This document shows, piece by piece, positions 1,713-7,828 of a stretch of 8,054 bases of DNA. The stretch is from a virus, in the UHGV virus genome UHGV-0324772, one strand, 5' to 3'. Every line of letters begins with the position of its first letter. Position 1 is the first letter of the stretch. The position numbers were made by a program, and so were the translations under genes. The notes beneath the pieces were generated by a model. That model saw nothing but the letters and a program-made list of their open reading frames with translations. It searched no databases and was not told the origin of the DNA.

Positions 1713-1954
1713 GCTGCCTGCTCTCCGGACTTAATATTGATTGTTGTCACTTCCTCCGCTTCAGCAATCTCCCGTTCGGTCAGAGTGGCAAAGTTTGCAG
1801 CCGCCGTTGTCATGAATGCGCTAATCAGTTCGGGATGTGCTTTCGCGTATCCTTCCCCGGCGTTGCGGTCGATGATTTTTATCGACACCCTTAACCAGTG
1901 TTCCGTCAAATCAAGGGCGTGCGATTGTGATTTTTTTGTGTGCTTCGCTGTCAT
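1709..1954 (-). CDS. Hypothetical protein (81 aa), translationally coupled to the SSB-like gene
   Basis: Track ORF on the same strand as neighbours; its stop overlaps the ssb start (ATGA). No recognisable motif; weak RBS. Confidence 0.4.
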   Translation of the reverse strand: MTAKHTKKSQSHALDLTEHWLRVSIKIIDRNAGEGYAKAHPELISAFMTTAAANFATLTEREIAEAEEVTTINIKSGEQAA

Positions 1955-2000: not shown

Positions 2001-2228
2001 TTCACCTGTTCACCTTTTGATATTTTCTCTTTTAATTCATAATGTTAATGGGTGAACAGTTTCACAAAAACTATTCACCAACTGTTCACCACTGTTCACC
2101 CTTGAAGCTCAATAAACAATCAAAAAGGTGAACAGTGAATAGTTTGGTGAACAGTTCATAAATAACTGTTCACCCTATAATATACTGATATAAAAGATAT
2201 TTATGACAGGGTGAACAGTGGTGAACAG
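2001..2228. repeat. P4-type type-I iteron cluster (TGTTCACC), putative cis replication region / origin bound by alpha protein
   Basis: Nine perfect octamers: TGTTCACC at 2007, 2083, 2093, 2167 and the complement GGTGAACA at 2051, 2127, 2146, 2210, 2220, plus degenerate copies (2001-2006, 2072-2079). An AT-rich stretch lies at 2176-2205. Sits immediately downstream of the alpha gene end, as crr does in P4. Confidence 0.8.
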
Positions 2229-2241
2229 TTATTCCATAAGT

Positions 2242-2686
2242 TTAATTTTTGCTATCGTCATTAGTGACCGATACACATGATGGCATCCAGTCTTCTGATT
2301 CCTCCGTCAGTGTCACGTTTGAACGCAAACCGTGCTTCGTTTTCCGTTTCATATACTCCCTGCCATATTCCGCCATTGCCCCCGGCATATCTTTACCGAA
2401 GCGCGTCAGTGTTACAGGTTTACCAAACCCATGTGCCCTCATATAAGCCAGATAGGCATGATAGAGATACCTGCGTGGGCTGAATGGCACAATTTCAGCA
2501 TTACCCACTAACAGGCCATCACACATTACCGATGCCATGAGATAGCCGCAGAAGTCCACCAGCGAATCCCCCTCTCGCTTTATCGCCAGTGCTTCTTCAG
2601 ATTTCTGCTGCTCATATAACAGGCGTCTGGCTTCGTCCTGATCAGCAAACCGTGTAAGCAGATGGCGAATCACTACCGCCAGCTCA
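2242..2686 (-). CDS. P4 alpha-type primase/helicase, C-terminal region (fragment; track ORF 2242..2673 with GTG start)
   Basis: Translation ELAVVIRHLLTRFADQDEARRLLYEQQ... continues the helicase-domain end seen on the other strand at 2976-3013. Frame is open upstream to a stop at 2707-2709. Ends at stop 2242-2244 next to the iterons. Confidence 0.65.
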
Positions 2687-2687
2687 A

Positions 2688-3015
2688 GTGGTTGGCTTTT
2701 CGCTGATTATCATGCCGGATATGACCCGCTACGCTGGTGATGGGGCAGGGATTAAGGCCATTACAGGCGGTGACAAGGTGGCAATTGACCCGAAACACAA
2801 AGCCCCCTATTCAACGCGTATTCCGGCAGTAGTGCTGGCGGTTAACAATAACGCCATGTCATTCAGTGACCGCAGCGGGGGGATCTCACGTCGTCGGGTG
2901 ATATTCAATTTTTCGGAAGTTGTACCGGAGAACGAACGCGATTCGATGCTGGCGGAAAAAATAGAAGGTGAGCTGGCGGTAGTGATTCGTCATCTGCTTA
3001 CACGGTTTGTTTTTT
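2688..3015 (+). CDS. P4 alpha-type helicase-domain fragment on the opposite strand to the rest of alpha (probable misassembly or inversion)
   Basis: Track ORF 2688..3017. ITGGDKVAIDPKHKAPYSTRIPAVVLAVNNNAMSFSDRSGGISRRRVIFNFSEVVPENERDSMLAEKIEGELAVVIRHLLTRF matches the region after Walker B in P4/D5-type helicases. Its 3' end (2976-3013) is the reverse complement of 2649-2686 with one mismatch. The stop codon is formed partly by adapter bases. Confidence 0.6.
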
Positions 3016-3073
3016 AATGATACGGCGACCACCGAGATCTACACTCTTTCCCTACACGACGCTCTTCCGATCT
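3016..3073 (+). other. Illumina TruSeq universal (P5) adapter, 58 nt, exact: sequencing/assembly artefact
   Basis: AATGATACGGCGACCACCGAGATCTACACTCTTTCCCTACACGACGCTCTTCCGATCT read directly at 3016-3073, preceded by TTTTT (3011-3015). Confidence 0.97.
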
Positions 3074-4064
3074 ACCAGCAGAGGGGGATTCGCTGGATGA
3101 ATAACTGCCAGTCGTACCGGTTCGCCAGCACCATGAATAATGCCGCCAGTACGCGATCTGCCTTGCGGTCATTCTCAGCCACCGAACGGCGCAACCACTT
3201 CCAGAAATTCGGCGCATGTGTTGCCAGCGTTTCCCCCTCTGCTGGTGGGCTGAAAGGTAATTCACTGGCAATTAACAACCAGTCGTTTTTGTTATGCTCC
3301 CGAAAATTACCAGTTCTGGTATCAAATACCCCGTTACTGAATCCAATCAGGTTACGGGCTGTATTCCCCATTACAGGCAAACTTAACTTCATGGTATCTA
3401 CCGCCGATTTAATAGCGTTCTGCGAATAGCTGATCTCCGCATCAATGAAAATCTGCGCCATAGCACGCTGTAACTCTTTATCCTGAACCGGCTCCCATAC
3501 AACGCCGTTGTAATGATGAACGGTGTCAGAGTCGGCATTGATTGCCAGTTCGCCGCCGTAATGTGCAAGGAGAACTTCACCGCGCTGGCTGGCCCCCATC
3601 TGATTCAACGCCAAAGATGAAGCACGCTCGTCATTTTTGCGCTCTGCCTTCTTCACTGGCAGTTCAATCACCAGACTTTCCCCATGCTCCGCTTCAGCTT
3701 TTAGGCCGACAAGGCGCGGAGTCCAGTCTTCAGGCTCTCGATCAACAAAGCTACGGTAACAACGTGCTTCCTTTACGCCTGCAATAGCAAGTAATGTCGC
3801 AACCTTCGTCAGACTTTTCTCTGCAATCTTTCCGGCACGATAAACACGCACATAATGACGGCCTTCATCGATAATTTGCATATCATCCAGGTTTTCCAGT
3901 TGTTCCGTACCCAGAATGACTGGTGGTGTATCATCTGCTGCAATATGCTTACCTGCCCATTCATTCCATTCTTTTGCATGGCTCCAGGCATCACTGCCAG
4001 CAAAAATGATGACTTCCGTCATTTTGTCGCGCGGTTGGTATTTTAAGTTCGGAGCACGTTTCAT
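3072..4064 (-). CDS. P4 alpha-type primase/helicase, N-terminal primase region (reading frame cut off at the adapter junction)
   Basis: Track ORF, 330 aa. Call rests on continuity with the alpha helicase and C-terminal fragments, position in the operon and the adjacent P4-type iterons; an early EVIIFAGSDAW segment is primase-like but not a confident motif match. The terminal stop (3072-3074) is created by adapter bases, so the real protein continues. GGAGG RBS 6 nt upstream; start overlaps the upstream stop (ATGA at 4061-4064). Confidence 0.75.
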   Translation of the reverse strand: MKRAPNLKYQPRDKMTEVIIFAGSDAWSHAKEWNEWAGKHIAADDTPPVILGTEQLENLDDMQIIDEGRHYVRVYRAGKIAEKSLTKVATLLAIAGVKEARCYRSFVDREPEDWTPRLVGLKAEAEHGESLVIELPVKKAERKNDERASSLALNQMGASQRGEVLLAHYGGELAINADSDTVHHYNGVVWEPVQDKELQRAMAQIFIDAEISYSQNAIKSAVDTMKLSLPVMGNTARNLIGFSNGVFDTRTGNFREHNKNDWLLIASELPFSPPAEGETLATHAPNFWKWLRRSVAENDRKADRVLAALFMVLANRYDWQLFIQRIPLCW

Positions 4065-4351: not shown

Positions 4352-4576
4352 TTATTCTCCGGTATAGCTCTGGTCGTGTATTTTTATAGCTTCATCCAGC
4401 TCTTTGATGACAGGATCAAGTAACGTAATTAACGCTCCAGCTAAATTAGCATCCCGTTCATCGTGTTCCGCATTTGTTGTCCCATCAAGCCAGGTTGATA
4501 AGATTTCTCGCATATTTTTGCCACAAACGAGCGCGTTTTCAGCATGTGTCAGCACTTTAAAATAAAGATCATTCAT
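4352..4576 (-). CDS. Hypothetical small protein (74 aa), alpha-operon member
   Basis: Track ORF; start overlaps the upstream ORF end by 8 nt; acidic, helical-looking sequence. Confidence 0.45.
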   Translation of the reverse strand: MNDLYFKVLTHAENALVCGKNMREILSTWLDGTTNAEHDERDANLAGALITLLDPVIKELDEAIKIHDQSYTGE

Positions 4577-4934
4577 GGCACACCTCCTGACGAATACGGG
4601 CGGCGAATATCATCACGTAGCCAGTTGGGGATTGCAGCCGGGCTTCCTGTTCGCTGGCGGCCTCGATGTGTATTACGCGTGGTTGTGCGGTGCTCAGGGC
4701 GATAAAACGCCAGATGAAATTGTTTTCGCATTTCTGAATAAACAGCGTGTTTTCTTCACGCCCTTTCCAGAAAGCCGCAGTATAGCCCATCTCCTTAACC
4801 ATCTTGCGGGCATCAACCAGCGTGTCAGCGGCTACATGTACCGTAGTTGCTCCATCTGCCATGCGGTCGTGGTGTAGTGCCAGAAAGGTGTATATAAATT
4901 TAGGGTGAGTTTGGGTATGCTGTGTTCCAGCCAT
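4569..4934 (-). CDS. Hypothetical protein (121 aa), first gene of the alpha operon
   Basis: Track ORF; GAGG 8 nt upstream of ATG 4934; sits downstream of the predicted minus-strand promoter. Confidence 0.5.
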   Translation of the reverse strand: MAGTQHTQTHPKFIYTFLALHHDRMADGATTVHVAADTLVDARKMVKEMGYTAAFWKGREENTLFIQKCENNFIWRFIALSTAQPRVIHIEAASEQEARLQSPTGYVMIFAARIRQEVCHE

Positions 4935-4996
4935 AATCGTTACCTCATTTAACGGGTTGGTTAGACGCCTCGATGGTGTTCCCGCACGTCGAGGCG

Positions 4997-5076
4997 TTGC
5001 ATTTTCCTAAACACGTATGTAATGTGTCATCACACATTAACACATTACATCGGGTGTAATTGACGTGTCAACACAC
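4997..5076. promoter_or_regulatory. Divergent promoter region with repeated operator-like half-sites (ACACATTA / TGTAATGT)
   Basis: Plus strand: TTGCAT (4997-5002), 17 nt, TAATGT (5020-5025). Minus strand: TTGACA (complement of 5066-5071), 18 nt, TAATGT (complement of 5042-5047). Inverted repeat atgtaatgtgt (5017-5027) / acacattacat (5040-5050), plus acacatta (5032-5039) and gtgtaatt (5054-5061). Confidence 0.4.
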
Positions 5077-5244
5077 AAAAATCAAAGACGTGGTAATCCT
5101 CCGTTCCAGTTTCGGTTAGATCCTGAGTTGAGGGAGTTGATGGAGCAAGCACAGCAAGTAGATGGAGACGAATCTTTAGCAGCCTGGATTAAAAGGATTA
5201 TTCGCAAAGAACTACAGCAACGCGGATATGAAGTCAAAATTTAA
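5065..5244 (+). CDS. Small ribbon-helix-helix (Arc/CopG-like) putative transcriptional regulator; start uncertain (GTG 5065 or ATG 5140)
   Basis: Below the track's length cut-off. Frame open from 5041 to TAA at 5242-5244. Translation ...PPFQFRLDPELRELMEQAQQVDGDESLAAWIKRIIRKELQQRGYEVKI has a beta-strand then two helices, as in RHH proteins. Divergent from the alpha operon, convergent with the TIR-like gene. Confidence 0.4.
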   Translation: MSTHKNQRRGNPPFQFRLDPELRELMEQAQQVDGDESLAAWIKRIIRKELQQRGYEVKI

Positions 5245-5257
5245 CAGATAATATTTC

Positions 5258-5290
5258 ATATAGAGCCATTTATCTCGAATGGCTCTATAT
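5258..5290. terminator. Perfect 13-bp stem hairpin between convergent genes (putative bidirectional terminator)
   Basis: atatagagccatt (5258-5270), loop tatctcg, aatggctctatat (5278-5290); followed on plus by gattttta. Lies between the RHH stop (5244) and the TIR-like stop (5320). Confidence 0.55.
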
Positions 5291-5319
5291 CTATGCAGAT
5301 TTTTAGTTCAAAGAATTTA

Positions 5320-6195
5320 CTAAACTGCGTAACCAGTAGCTCGCAAGTCTTTAATAATGCTATATGCTACTTCTTCAATAGAAGAATTGAATTTTTTATA
5401 AATAAGACCATTCAAATCACTTGGAATCACTACATCACCTGTGTATAGACAACAAACCTTAGAACGACCTAATTTCCCTACGAAATAACCAAATTCAAAC
5501 ATTACATTTGGTCGTGCACGTAACTCCTTTTCTCTTTCATTATCAGGTAAAGAGTCTTGCGGCAATAAATAAGCGATCTCATCAGGTGTGAGAAGAATGA
5601 ATGCGAAACCAACATCACTATTTGCTTCAAATTTCTCAATCACTGTCTGGCCTACATCAGCTTGCCTATGGAGAACAATAGGTTCTAAGCCAATTTCTCT
5701 TAAAAACACCTCTAAGTTGGTTTTTGATATTTCATCTCTTCCATGAACAATGAATACTTTTTTGGTTTTTACCGCTGAACTCTGAGGTACTTCAATATTT
5801 TCTTCAACAACTTTGGAAGATATAGGAATTAACTCCAGTCGCTCCATAATCGACTCTAGTTTTCTTATCTTACTCTGGAGTTTACGCGTAGCCTCACTGA
5901 TTTTTTCTCCCAAGGAAGTCTCGTACAATGAAATAACACCAAATGCCCCACCTTCATATTCTTCTTTGAAATCATCATTTGTGAAACTACGCTTCAGTAG
6001 CTCAGCATTAAAATCACTCCATTTCCTGTAATCAGCATTAAACAGCTCCAAGTCACTATTGTTATTTATGCTTTTCTGTAGGAGTAATAATCCTTTTTGA
6101 ATTCTGTCTTGAATTTTATCTTTCATATCATCTCTTGATATGATTAGTTCACAAACAGTTTTCATTTCTACGCTATTTTTTTTTCGAGTAGCCAT
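5320..6195 (-). CDS. TIR-like (COG4271/PF10137-type) domain protein with an unassigned N-terminal domain; candidate anti-phage NADase effector
   Basis: Track ORF, 291 aa. Residues about 145-291 carry the pattern I associate with TIR-like nucleotide-binding proteins: KKVFIVHGRD, GLEPIVLHRQ, TVIEKFE, VGFAFILLTPDE, RARPNVMFEFGYFVGKLGR, IPSDLNGLIY. N-terminal about 140 aa is helical with no TM segment or known motif. Good RBS (AAGGGTG, 5 nt, ATG). Visibly AT-rich compared with flanks. Confidence 0.7.
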   Translation of the reverse strand: MATRKKNSVEMKTVCELIISRDDMKDKIQDRIQKGLLLLQKSINNNSDLELFNADYRKWSDFNAELLKRSFTNDDFKEEYEGGAFGVISLYETSLGEKISEATRKLQSKIRKLESIMERLELIPISSKVVEENIEVPQSSAVKTKKVFIVHGRDEISKTNLEVFLREIGLEPIVLHRQADVGQTVIEKFEANSDVGFAFILLTPDEIAYLLPQDSLPDNEREKELRARPNVMFEFGYFVGKLGRSKVCCLYTGDVVIPSDLNGLIYKKFNSSIEEVAYSIIKDLRATGYAV

Positions 6196-6231: not shown

Positions 6232-6459
6232 TTATGTCCGCCATTCCCCCCTAATCCATGCCTGAACTTCGGAGAGACGGTAAGCTACCGCAGTAGCGCC
6301 AATCTTGATCCGCTTAGGAAATTTTCCTTCCTTCTCCAGCTTCCAGCGTGTGCTGTTCGCAAGAGTGGTTAGCTCCCGACATTCTTTCTCACGGATCATA
6401 CGATCAATGTTAGGAATGTACTCCAGACCCTTTTTATCAACAATTGCCATTTTTTTCAT
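6232..6459 (-). CDS. alpA: AlpA/Vis-family small DNA-binding regulator or excisionase-like protein
   Basis: 75 aa; the central segment resembles AlpA-family (PF05930-type) prophage regulators; lies 1 nt downstream of the integrase stop on the same strand. Confidence 0.7.
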   Translation of the reverse strand: MKKMAIVDKKGLEYIPNIDRMIREKECRELTTLANSTRWKLEKEGKFPKRIKIGATAVAYRLSEVQAWIRGEWRT

Positions 6460-6460
6460 G

Positions 6461-7696
6461 TTAACCAGCCTTTTGTTTGAGGATTGTCACTTTTGAATCA
6501 GCACCTGCGATGCTATTGAGATATGTAGTCCAGAGTTCCAGAGCATCCAGTTTTTTAGCCATAAACTTACTCCGATTGTAAACACCTGCCACGCCAGGTA
6601 GCGCATGGCCTAACAGTTGTTCTACTACATAAAATTCAACACCGAGATCACTTAGATGAGTAGATAGCGTTCTTCTAAGGTCGTGTAGTGACCATTGTTT
6701 TTCATGGCCCAAACGTTTACCGATTTTCCCCCCAATCTTGCTTACGCTTTCTCTAATTCGCAGACTTCCCAGCACATAACCAGTATGTTTTGTCTCTTCG
6801 TGAACATCCGTTACCCACTGTCGTAGAATTTCAGGTACTGGTCTGACGATTTCAACACCAGTTTTTGAGTGATCTTTTGGTACAGTCCAAACCCAACTTT
6901 CGAGATCCCATTCGCTCCATTCTGATAATCGGGCTTCACTCATTCGACATCCAAATACTGTACAAAGCACAAACATTTTTCGCGTGTATTCAGACATTAG
7001 TTTTAAATCAGGCTCGACAAAAATTGCCTTCCAGAGCTGGCCGAGTTCGGCTTCATCCAGAACCCGATCCCGCTTACCTGCAATCTGCCCCACATCACTC
7101 ATGCGCAAATCCTTTAAAGCATCACACGTCGCGTACTGGCGTACCCGACAAAAACGAAGAGCTAATTTAGTGTCAGAAAAAACATACGCCGCCATAACTG
7201 GTGCATTACGTTTAATTCGGTCAAAACAGTCCAGCCATTCATATAGGTGAGTGTCATTTACGGGCAAATGACCGATATAGGGAAAGATATGCTTTCGAAA
7301 TCTGCCAAGCGTTACAGCATGAGTTTTACGACGCACCTTACAGTAATTTTCATACCAGTAATTTAGTGCATCCTCCACTGTGACCGGCTTTAAGCGTTCT
7401 TCAGCCTGAATCTTAATCTGGATACGCGGATCACGTTTGTCAGCCAACCAACCACGGCACTCGTCGCGCTTTTCCCTTGCCTGTTTGAGTGACATATCAG
7501 GATATTTACCCAACGTTAGCCAGACCGGAGCAGCCCGGCCACCTGCTAACCTGTAGAAGAAAACAAAGCTCACAGCCCCTTTAGTACTCACACGAATAGA
7601 AAGCCCCTTTCCATCAGCAATGGTGATCTGCTTTTCTCTGGGTTTCCCCAGATATCCTTTAAGCGCTTTGTCGCTCAGTTTGTTCTCGCCAGCCAT
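6461..7696 (-). CDS. int: Tyrosine site-specific integrase, P4-like family
   Basis: Track ORF 6461..7747; likely start at ATG 7696 (MAGENKLSDKALKGYLGKP...ADGKGLSIRV resembles the P4-type N-terminal arm-binding domain). C-terminal catalytic signatures HDLRRT and LLGH...GVYNRS (Tyr). Confidence 0.9.
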   Translation of the reverse strand: MAGENKLSDKALKGYLGKPREKQITIADGKGLSIRVSTKGAVSFVFFYRLAGGRAAPVWLTLGKYPDMSLKQAREKRDECRGWLADKRDPRIQIKIQAEERLKPVTVEDALNYWYENYCKVRRKTHAVTLGRFRKHIFPYIGHLPVNDTHLYEWLDCFDRIKRNAPVMAAYVFSDTKLALRFCRVRQYATCDALKDLRMSDVGQIAGKRDRVLDEAELGQLWKAIFVEPDLKLMSEYTRKMFVLCTVFGCRMSEARLSEWSEWDLESWVWTVPKDHSKTGVEIVRPVPEILRQWVTDVHEETKHTGYVLGSLRIRESVSKIGGKIGKRLGHEKQWSLHDLRRTLSTHLSDLGVEFYVVEQLLGHALPGVAGVYNRSKFMAKKLDALELWTTYLNSIAGADSKVTILKQKAG

Positions 7697-7828
7697 TTTT
7701 AGCCCCAAAAAGCAATACAAGCTGCAATACAGAGATGATTGCAACACACAGATAACGAGGAAAATTCAGTGAAAGCGCCAGATAAACTTATTCTTTATTA
7801 TCAAAAGATTAAGTGTAAAAACCAGCAA

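What the first reader, a model, noticed from the sequence alone, without database searches (positions are those of the whole stretch)
4964..4998. Stable hairpin in the predicted 5' leader of the alpha operon
gacgcctcga (4964-4973) pairs with tcgaggcgt (4989-4997) around a 15-nt loop, about 30 nt upstream of the first operon ATG (4934) and downstream of the predicted minus-strand promoter. P4 controls alpha-operon expression by premature termination in the leader using a small immunity RNA, so a structured leader is a plausible attenuation or RNA-target element. On the plus strand it is followed by TTGCATTTTCC and could also act as a terminator.
Basis: inference. Interest (0 to 1): 0.35.

Follow-up and report, generated by a model that had tools for sequence, protein, structure and literature searches.

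The report
Terminator of a satellite antisense RNA
The hairpin is real, but its evolution points to the opposite strand: it most likely ends a conserved, uncatalogued small RNA of about 78 nt that reads antisense across the ribosome-binding site and start codon of the first gene of a phage satellite's replication operon.

Summary
The inverted repeat exists (4965-4973 / 4989-4997, 9/9 bp). The window is an E. coli int-alpA-primase satellite whose minus-strand operon (Icd-like, two small ORFs, P4-alpha-like primase) resembles the P4 alpha operon. Rfam finds neither P4 immunity RNA here (C4/CI, isrK/seqA), although it finds both in real P4.

Across about 120 unique homologues from Enterobacterales the stem covaries (96.7% paired). 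The pairing is kept on the plus strand: 165 G.U cells against 9 A.C cells, plus-strand fold more stable in 118 of 121, and a T-rich tail only on the plus strand. An invariant TAnnnT -10 box lies inside codons 5-7 of the Icd-like gene, 7 nt before a conserved A at 4929.

Best reading: the hairpin is the Rho-independent terminator of a cis-antisense sRNA (4929 to about 5006). Its anti-Shine-Dalgarno loop would block translation of the operon's first gene. It probably works together with a divergent Arc-like ribbon-helix-helix (RHH) repressor.

No expression data were available. The mechanism is a familiar kind; the RNA family appears undescribed.

The parts
4964..4998 (+). Terminator stem-loop of the predicted antisense sRNA. 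The lower stem is 4964-4973 with 4989-4998. On the plus strand only, an upper GUG/CGC extension gives a 4-nt loop.
   Evidence: Covariation.
4999..5007 (+). Tail GCAUUUUCC after the stem. This U tract is weaker here than the family consensus (UUGYUUUUU).
   Evidence: Family mean is 5.8 T in the 10 nt after the stem, against 1.25 U on the minus strand.
4929..5006 (+). Predicted cis-antisense sRNA of about 78 nt. P1 pairs 4929-4933 with 4958-4962. P2 pairs 4937-4942 with 4950-4955. The P2 loop CCUCAUU (4943-4949) is an anti-Shine-Dalgarno sequence. The terminator follows.
   Evidence: Covariance model R1 scores 87.1 bits at 4929-5014. MFE fold. RNAalifold gives the same three helices. A weak symR-like hit starts at 4929. 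The ends are inferred, not mapped.
4916..4921 (+). Predicted -10 hexamer TATGCT of the sRNA promoter. It lies inside codons 5-7 of the Icd-like gene, 7 nt before A4929.
   Evidence: T, A and T of TAnnnT are present in 121/121, 120/121 and 121/121 sequences; the G two bases before the hexamer in 117/121. Subfamily 2 has TGgTATGAT. Synonymous sites are frozen in codons 2-16.
4932..4946 (-). Translation initiation region of the Icd-like gene: SD GAGG (4946-4943) and ATG (4934-4932). All of it lies inside the sRNA-complementary stretch.
   Evidence: Read directly from the sequence.
4569..4934 (-). Icd-like gene (121 aa), first gene of the operon that continues through a 74-aa ORF, a DUF4222 ORF and the primase.
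   Evidence: NCBIfam phage_ICD_like, E = 8.8e-22. RefSeq annotation in strain E04. Pfam hits for the downstream genes.
5044..5071 (-). Candidate operon promoter: -35 TTGACA (5071-5066), 16-nt spacer, -10 TGTAAT (5049-5044), predicted start near 5037.
   Evidence: Read from the sequence. In homologues, minus-strand promoter-like sites cluster so that the start falls 100-119 nt from the sRNA +1. A rival weak site, ATGACA 5030-5025 / GAAAAT 5006-5001, was flagged.
5017..5050 (.). Operator-like palindrome ATGTAATGTGT-N12-ACACATTACAT with a nested TAATGTGT/ACACATTA repeat. Each arm carries a TGTAAT -10-like hexamer facing inward.
   Evidence: Function is inferred.
5065..5244 (+). Arc-like ribbon-helix-helix (YlcI/YnfO family) gene, the likely transcriptional repressor partner.
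   Evidence: RefSeq annotation. PHROG Arc-like repressor, E = 1.6e-5. NCBIfam YlcI_YnfO_N match is below its cut-off. A homologue follows the sRNA in 90 of 129 loci.

Best explanation
The stem-loop at 4964-4998 is the Rho-independent terminator of a small plus-strand RNA of about 78 nt. That RNA starts near A4929, five bases inside the Icd-like coding sequence, from a -10-driven promoter (TATGCT, 4916-4921).

The RNA is perfectly complementary to the 5' leader, Shine-Dalgarno sequence and start codon of the first gene of the satellite's P4-alpha-like replication operon. Its 5' domain (P1 plus P2) presents the anti-SD sequence CCUC in a 7-nt loop. The mRNA leader presents the SD in the complementary loop. 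Pairing should therefore start loop to loop, spread into a long duplex, block ribosome binding and probably trigger RNase III cleavage. That would keep the operon silent while the island is quiescent.

The divergent Arc-like RHH protein probably represses the operon promoter at the palindrome 5017-5050. This would give two-layer control: a repressor plus an antisense RNA.

Shown here: the structure, its strand, its conservation and covariation, the T-rich tail, the conserved -10 box, and the association with the first gene of the operon.

Inferred: that the RNA is made, its exact ends, translational repression, and the role of the RHH protein.
For: Strand of the structure:
- The plus-strand fold is far stronger than the minus-strand fold in the window and in 118 of 121 homologues (mean -22.8 against -17.3 kcal/mol).
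- On an 80-sequence alignment, 96.7% of cells pair, with 152 compensatory cells and a covariation score of 0.362 against 0.159 in shuffles (0 of 500 as high). Slid controls pair at 37-50%.
- G.U cells number 165 on the plus strand against 9 A.C cells, which is what G.U on the minus strand would look like.
- RNAalifold independently returns P1, P2 and the terminator.

Terminator:
- The T-rich tail is on the plus strand only.

Promoter:
- TAnnnT is invariant 7 nt upstream of a conserved A.
- A second subfamily carries an extended -10, TGgTATGAT.
- Synonymous sites vary in 1 of 15 codons for codons 2-16, against 19 of 26 for codons 17-42.

Association with the target:
- 26 of 28 loci fetched by Icd-like protein similarity have a strong R1 hit antisense over the gene start.
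- The same RNA plus a 13-codon tag heads Icd-like genes (71), primases (34) and other ORFs (21).

Position in the leader:
- Minus-strand promoter-like sites in homologues place the mRNA start beyond the terminator.

Not the P4 system:
-.
Against: - No transcript data of any kind were available, so the RNA, its 5' end and its 3' end are predictions.
- The -35 region is poor (TATAAA, 3 of 6).
- In this window the U tract is short and interrupted (GCAUUUU), and the generic terminator scan does not call the site.
- The -10 box overlaps conserved codons (His/Ser-Thr). Part of its invariance could be protein constraint, or a recently spread recombination block.
- Most homologues were retrieved with a DNA pattern taken from the RNA's 5' domain, so invariance of those pattern positions is circular. 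The stem, tail and -10 box were not in the pattern.
- The sequences are related, so the shuffle and Fisher statistics overstate independence.
- A weak alternative minus-strand promoter would start the mRNA inside the hairpin.
Confidence: 0.7

Rival explanations
1. The hairpin acts in the minus-strand mRNA leader as an attenuator, or as the target of a P4-style immunity RNA that causes premature termination before the alpha-like operon.
For: The hairpin probably lies within the leader (candidate promoter 5071-5044). The minus-strand RNA can still fold it (-17.8 kcal/mol; 86.4% of cells pair). The operon is organised like the P4 alpha operon.
Against: No U tract follows the hairpin on the minus strand. 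A.C mismatches are tolerated on the minus strand 165 times. No C4/CI or isrK/seqA element is found at E<=1, while both are found in P4. The minus-strand z-score is modest.
Confidence: 0.08
2. The plus-strand RNA is mainly the 5' leader of the RHH mRNA. The hairpin is then an attenuator whose read-through sets RHH levels, and the antisense effect is secondary.
For: The RHH gene follows on the same strand 59 nt downstream, and a homologue does so in 90 of 129 loci. The window's U tract is weak, so read-through is plausible.
Against: Most primase-type loci keep the RNA and terminator without an RHH homologue downstream (26 of 32). The palindrome between terminator and RHH carries its own -10-like hexamer (TGTAAT 5018-5023). 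Most homologues have strong T tracts.
Confidence: 0.12
3. The pair is a type I toxin-antitoxin module. The Icd-like protein is a cell-division toxin and the sRNA is its antitoxin, serving to stabilise the island rather than to regulate the operon.
For: The Icd-like domain is confirmed. The architecture resembles SymR/SymE: an antisense RNA starting a few bases inside the toxin ORF, and a weak symR hit.
Against: The same RNA and 13-codon tag sit directly on primase ORFs in Xenorhabdus and on unrelated ORFs. The conserved partner is therefore the operon's first cistron, not Icd as such. Toxicity of this Icd-like protein was not tested here.
Confidence: 0.1
4. The site is a chance or generic insulating terminator, or a DNA palindrome bound by a protein, with no dedicated RNA.
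For: A 9-bp inverted repeat is unremarkable in 8 kb.
Against: Strand-specific wobble pairs and compensatory changes show RNA-level selection. A conserved 5' domain and a -10 box lie immediately upstream. No plus-strand gene lies upstream for the site to terminate.
Confidence: 0.03

Closest known systems
Phage P22 sar RNA (immI region; from my own knowledge)
   Same: A small cis-antisense RNA, transcribed from a promoter inside or next to the target gene. It covers the ribosome-binding site of an early or anti-immunity gene and sits in a region also controlled by Arc/Mnt ribbon-helix-helix repressors.
   Different: No sequence or Rfam-level similarity was detected. The target here is an Icd-like or primase operon of a satellite, not ant. 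The RHH gene is divergent rather than upstream in the same operon.
SymR/SymE (Rfam RF01809)
   Same: An antisense RNA of about 77 nt that starts a few bases inside the target ORF, covers the start codon and SD, and consists of a 5' hairpin domain plus a terminator. It is the only Rfam model that aligns at all: 4929-5001, plus strand.
   Different: The score is 24.1 bits against a gathering score of 61 (E = 0.39). The target protein is unrelated, and the genomic context is a satellite rather than an SOS-induced chromosomal locus.
P1 C4 RNA and P4 CI RNA with seqA/isrK (Rfam RF01695, RF01394)
   Same: RNA-based silencing of an operon whose first ORF is Icd-like. The position at the head of the P4 alpha-type operon is the same.
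   Different: C4/CI is cut out of the same-strand leader and acts on repeated target sites. Here the RNA is encoded on the opposite strand. Neither model matches the window, and R1 does not match P4, whereas C4 and isrK do.
IS10 RNA-OUT / RNA-IN (from my own knowledge)
   Same: The promoter lies just inside the coding sequence and points outward. The stem-loop RNA pairs with the 5' end of the mRNA, including the RBS and AUG.
   Different: This RNA has a different fold (P1 enclosing P2, then a terminator), no sequence similarity, and sits in a satellite regulatory region rather than a transposase gene.
Plasmid pMV158 CopG plus antisense RNAII (abstract of PMC4485353, listed)
   Same: Two-layer control of a replication gene by a ribbon-helix-helix transcriptional repressor and a small antisense RNA that blocks translation.
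   Different: That system belongs to a Gram-positive rolling-circle plasmid, where copG and repB are co-transcribed. There is no homology. The RHH role here is inferred only.

Membership tests
P4-type immunity (CI/C4 RNA plus seqA/isrK in the alpha-operon leader) | A C4/CI-like RNA encoded on the same strand in the leader | tested here: not met
   No RF01695 hit in the window at E<=1. The positive control P4 scores 74.9 bits.
P4-type immunity (CI/C4 RNA plus seqA/isrK in the alpha-operon leader) | An isrK/seqA-like target element upstream of the CI RNA | tested here: not met
   No RF01394 hit in the window. P4 scores 60.8 bits.
P4-type immunity (CI/C4 RNA plus seqA/isrK in the alpha-operon leader) | An operon with an Icd-like first ORF and an alpha-type primase | tested here: met
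   Icd-like domain, E = 8.8e-22. Primase 41% identical to P4 alpha over 176 aa.
Rho-independent terminator (plus strand) | A stable GC-rich stem-loop in the transcribed strand | tested here: met
   -26.8 kcal/mol with z = -5.3. 96.7% of cells pair across 80 sequences.
Rho-independent terminator (plus strand) | A U tract immediately 3' of the stem | tested here: inconclusive
   The window has GCAUUUU, with only 4 consecutive U, and is not called by the scan. The family mean is 5.8 T in 10 nt, and runs of at least 4 T occur in 85 of 121 sequences.
Rho-independent terminator (plus strand) | Transcripts that end at the site | not testable with these tools
   No RNA-seq or Term-seq data are accessible.
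cis-encoded antisense sRNA that represses translation initiation | Its own promoter on the strand opposite the target | tested here: inconclusive
   The conserved TAnnnT box and the G two bases before the hexamer, 7 nt before a conserved A, an extended -10 in subfamily 2, and frozen synonymous sites all point to a promoter. The -35 is weak and no transcription start has been mapped.
cis-encoded antisense sRNA that represses translation initiation | Overlap with the SD and start codon of the target | tested here: met
   The predicted RNA 4929-5006 covers SD 4943-4946 and ATG 4932-4934.
cis-encoded antisense sRNA that represses translation initiation | A conserved secondary structure supported by covariation | tested here: met
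cis-encoded antisense sRNA that represses translation initiation | A repressive effect on the target | not testable with these tools
   This needs reporter fusions or Northern blots.
SymR (RF01809) | A score at or above the Rfam gathering threshold | tested here: not met
   24.1 bits against 61.
Type I toxin-antitoxin | A toxic protein specifically paired with the antisense RNA | tested here: inconclusive
   The Icd-like domain is present, but the same RNA heads primase and other ORFs. Toxicity was not tested.

The most novel reading that the evidence does not exclude
The RNA could be the immunity or quiescence determinant of a very large class of Enterobacterales satellites (PICI-like and P4-alpha-like). 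In that reading it functionally replaces the P4 CI RNA with an opposite-strand antisense RNA. It would travel as a portable cassette: sRNA, promoter, leader and a 13-codon tag, recombined onto unrelated first genes (icd, primase and others). Because its 5' domain is nearly identical between co-resident islands (up to 4 copies per genome), it could also act in trans. That would give cross-immunity or competition between satellites.
Probability: 0.3. Interest if true: 0.65.

Novelty: new member of a known kind. Interest (0 to 1): 0.5.

Why it matters
How Gram-negative satellites of the int-alpA-primase type keep their replication operon silent is poorly described. The known RNA-based model is P4's CI/seqA system, and that system is absent here.

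A conserved, structured antisense RNA sits exactly over the translation start of the operon's first gene. Next to it lie an Arc-like repressor gene and an operator-like palindrome. Together they give a concrete model that can be tested with one synonymous point mutation.

The RNA occurs in about one in eight complete E. coli genomes and in many other Enterobacterales. Neither Rfam 15 nor RefSeq annotates it.

For the finding as stated, the practical message is more modest. The hairpin is an ordinary intrinsic terminator; only the strand and the transcript it belongs to were unexpected.

Tried and rejected
- P4-type immunity RNA in the leader. Rejected by Rfam scans of the window and of 13 related loci, with P4 as positive control.
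- Membership of symR. Rejected on score.
- DNA palindrome or protein-binding site. Rejected because the wobble asymmetry is RNA-specific.
- Minus-strand intrinsic terminator. Rejected because there is no U tract.
- A small peptide encoded in the plus-strand RNA. The only candidate is a TTG-started 17-codon frame without an SD, crossing the variable loop. Not pursued.
- A pseudoknot between the P2 loop and the linker. Dropped because loop variants (ACUCC) do not keep it. The linker UGGU pairs instead with the 5' GCCA to form P1.
- Literature searches for a prior description, using Icd-like, PICI or satellite with antisense or small RNA, EcCICFT073, and the sequence strings themselves. Nothing relevant turned up. 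The one sequence-string match was an unrelated PCR primer.
- Megablast of the region against the phage collection found nothing. The sensitive search found only five records.
- The Fisher test on synonymous sites is indicative only, because the alleles are related.

Full report
**Observation**

Arms 4965-4973 and 4989-4997 are 9/9 complementary with a 15-nt spacer. G4964 and T4998 add a wobble pair on the plus strand only.

A repeat of this size is not unusual on its own. The window contains four perfect short-loop repeats of 9 nt or more, and the simple terminator scan does not flag this one.

Folding already separates the two strands. The plus-strand RNA folds at -26.8 kcal/mol (z = -5.3, no shuffle as good). 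The minus-strand RNA folds at -17.8 kcal/mol (z = -2.6).

**Context**

The window is 100% identical over 4400-5400 to several E. coli chromosomes. It has no close match in the phage collection.

Genes on the minus strand:
- integrase, 6461-7747
- an AlpA-type regulator, 6232-6459
- a TIR-domain protein, 5320-6195
- an operon made of an Icd-like gene (4569-4934), a 74-aa ORF, a DUF4222 ORF and a D5_N/Pox_D5 primase
- an SSB gene and a major capsid gene

Between the TIR gene and the operon lies a plus-strand Arc-like ribbon-helix-helix (RHH) gene, 5065-5244.

The primase is 41% identical to P4 alpha over the D5_N region. The Icd-like ORF weakly resembles the C-terminal part of the old P4 'cI ORF'. 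Calling this an alpha-like operon is therefore reasonable.

The P4 immunity RNAs are absent, however. Rfam at E<=1 finds no C4/CI and no isrK/seqA in the window. The same scan of genuine P4 finds both, at 74.9 and 60.8 bits.

**Comparative evidence for the hairpin**

The 231-nt region matches 667 of 5426 complete E. coli genomes. An alignment of 13 diverged copies keeps the hairpin through compensatory changes and always follows it with a T-rich tail on the plus strand.

A pattern taken from the conserved 5' part retrieved at least 120 more loci from Xenorhabdus, Photorhabdus, Proteus, Klebsiella, Citrobacter, Pantoea, Erwinia, Pectobacterium, Serratia, Yersinia and others. Together these gave 121 unique sequences.

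Results on an 80-sequence alignment:
- 96.7% of cells in the proposed helices pair.
- 10 of 19 pairs show double changes, with 152 compensatory cells.
- The covariation score is 0.362 against 0.159 in shuffles (0 of 500 as high).
- Sliding the 3' partners drops pairing to 37-50%.

The strand test is clear:
- There are 165 G.U cells on the plus strand, which would be A.C mismatches on the minus strand. Only 9 cells go the other way. Pairing is 96.7% on the plus strand against 86.4% on the minus strand.
- The plus-strand hairpin is the more stable one in 118 of 121 sequences.
- The 10 nt after the stem hold 5.8 T on average on the plus strand, against 1.25 U on the minus strand.

The selected structure is therefore a plus-strand RNA hairpin with the anatomy of an intrinsic terminator. 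In this particular window the U tract (GCAUUUU) is weaker than the family norm.

**What it terminates**

No plus-strand gene lies upstream.

Immediately upstream of the hairpin the plus strand is highly conserved back to an A at 4929 (118 of 121). Seven bases further upstream lies TATGCT (4916-4921). The T, A and T of its TAnnnT pattern are present in 121, 120 and 121 of 121 sequences. The G two bases before the hexamer is present in 117. None of these positions was part of the search pattern.

A second subfamily was found through Icd-like protein similarity and then by its own pattern. It has the extended -10 TGgTATGAT at the same distance from the start.

Within 26 alleles of the 121-aa Icd-like gene, synonymous variation occurs in 1 of 15 codons for codons 2-16, against 19 of 26 for codons 17-42. 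This is indicative only, because the alleles are related.

The predicted RNA (4929 to about 5006) folds into three parts:
- P1: 4929-4933 with 4958-4962.
- P2: 4937-4942 with 4950-4955, with the loop CCUCAUU.
- The terminator.

RNAalifold finds the same three helices independently. Subfamily 2 keeps the architecture with different P1 sequences, AGCUACC pairing with GGUGGUU.

A covariance model of the family scores 87 bits at 4929-5014 on the plus strand, and that is its only hit in the window. It finds nothing in P4. It hits antisense over the gene start in 26 of 28 loci fetched by Icd-like protein similarity. Of the other two, one is cut at the contig end and one has only a weak hit.

No Rfam family reaches its threshold at this site in 13 diverse loci. 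The only Rfam alignment in the window is a sub-threshold symR match that starts exactly at 4929.

**Target and mechanism (inferred)**

The RNA is fully complementary to the SD (GAGG, 4946-4943) and ATG (4934-4932) of the operon's first gene. The anti-SD sits in the P2 loop.

The first gene is Icd-like in 71 loci. In 34 Xenorhabdus loci it is a zinc-finger primase carrying the same 13-residue N-terminal tag. In 21 loci it is something else. The conserved partner is thus the first cistron of the operon, which argues for operon gatekeeping rather than a dedicated Icd toxin-antitoxin pair.

The likely operon promoter is TTGACA (5071-5066), 16 nt, TGTAAT (5049-5044). In homologues, minus-strand promoter-like sites cluster so that the start falls 100-119 nt from the sRNA +1 (32 of 43 detected; detections number 43 against 19 in shuffled sequence). 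The leader would then contain the whole complement of the RNA. A weaker site flagged by the scan would start the mRNA inside the hairpin and cannot be excluded.

The palindrome 5017-5050 overlaps this promoter and is the obvious operator for the Arc-like protein. That protein's gene follows the RNA in 90 of 129 loci, but is missing from most primase-type loci. This argues against the RNA being merely the RHH leader.

**Comparison and verdict**

The arrangement works like P22 sar, SymR/SymE and IS10 RNA-OUT. Combined with an RHH repressor, it also resembles pMV158 CopG/RNAII. It occupies the place that the C4/CI RNAs hold in P1 and P4. It is not a member of any of those families by the tests available.

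I found no description of it in Rfam 15 or in the searchable literature. That does not prove none exists.

- Its main interpretation (minus-strand leader attenuator in the P4 manner) is not supported.
- Its aside (plus-strand terminator) is supported.
- Confidence that the hairpin is a plus-strand RNA terminator-type structure is high, about 0.85.
- Confidence in the full antisense-repression model is about 0.6, because no expression data could be examined.

Noticed in passing
window 5017-5050: A perfect 11-nt inverted repeat (ATGTAATGTGT / ACACATTACAT) with a nested 8-nt repeat. Each arm carries an inward-facing TGTAAT -10-like hexamer, which suggests face-to-face promoters for the operon and the RHH gene sharing one operator.
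   Followed up: partly
window 2003-2234: About eleven copies of GGTGAACAGT in both orientations, in the AT-rich gap between the primase gene and the next ORF. They look like iterons of the satellite's replication origin, and they explain the spurious miRNA hits from Rfam.
   Followed up: partly
window 2646-3096 and 142-321: Compared with its closest complete relative (E. coli E04), the window carries local fold-back inversions. Positions 2687-3009 are the reverse complement of the adjacent primase segment, with a 41-nt inverted duplicate at 2646-2686 / 2969-3009. This breaks the primase ORF. None of 5426 complete E. coli genomes shares the arrangement. It is probably an assembly chimera or a rearrangement.
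   Followed up: partly
window 5320-6195 (minus strand): The TIR-domain protein (Pfam CAP12/Pycsar TIR) matches the PADLOC candidate single-gene defence system PDC-S35 at E = 7e-67. It sits as cargo between alpA and the regulatory region.
   Followed up: partly
window 5258-5290: A perfect 13-bp inverted repeat (ATATAGAGCCATT / AATGGCTCTATAT) between the convergent RHH and TIR genes. It is probably a bidirectional terminator.
   Followed up: no
L015-L132 (Xenorhabdus loci), first ORF antisense to the sRNA: The sRNA, its promoter and the 13-codon tag MADxQHxQTHPKF are fused directly to a long zinc-finger primase ORF instead of an Icd-like gene. The leader cassette appears to recombine onto different first genes.
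   Followed up: partly
L012 1501-1590; L134 and L135 2530-2615: A diverged copy of the sRNA module (TGCCAT variant, truncated 14-codon ORF) lies upstream of a 450-aa plus-strand ORF of unknown function. It occurs in lambdoid phage mEp460_ev081, in Morganella phage IME1369_01 and in many E. coli chromosomes.
   Followed up: no
L147, L148, L156, L157, L191 at 1809-1899 (minus strand): A second, weak, AT-rich R1 hit (about 22 bits) lies about 20 nt beyond the sRNA terminator in some islands. Its meaning is unknown, and it is not seen in the window.
   Followed up: no
L001 9241-11856: In strain E04 the otherwise identical island has an IS66-family element inserted in the integrase gene. The window's integrase is intact.
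   Followed up: no
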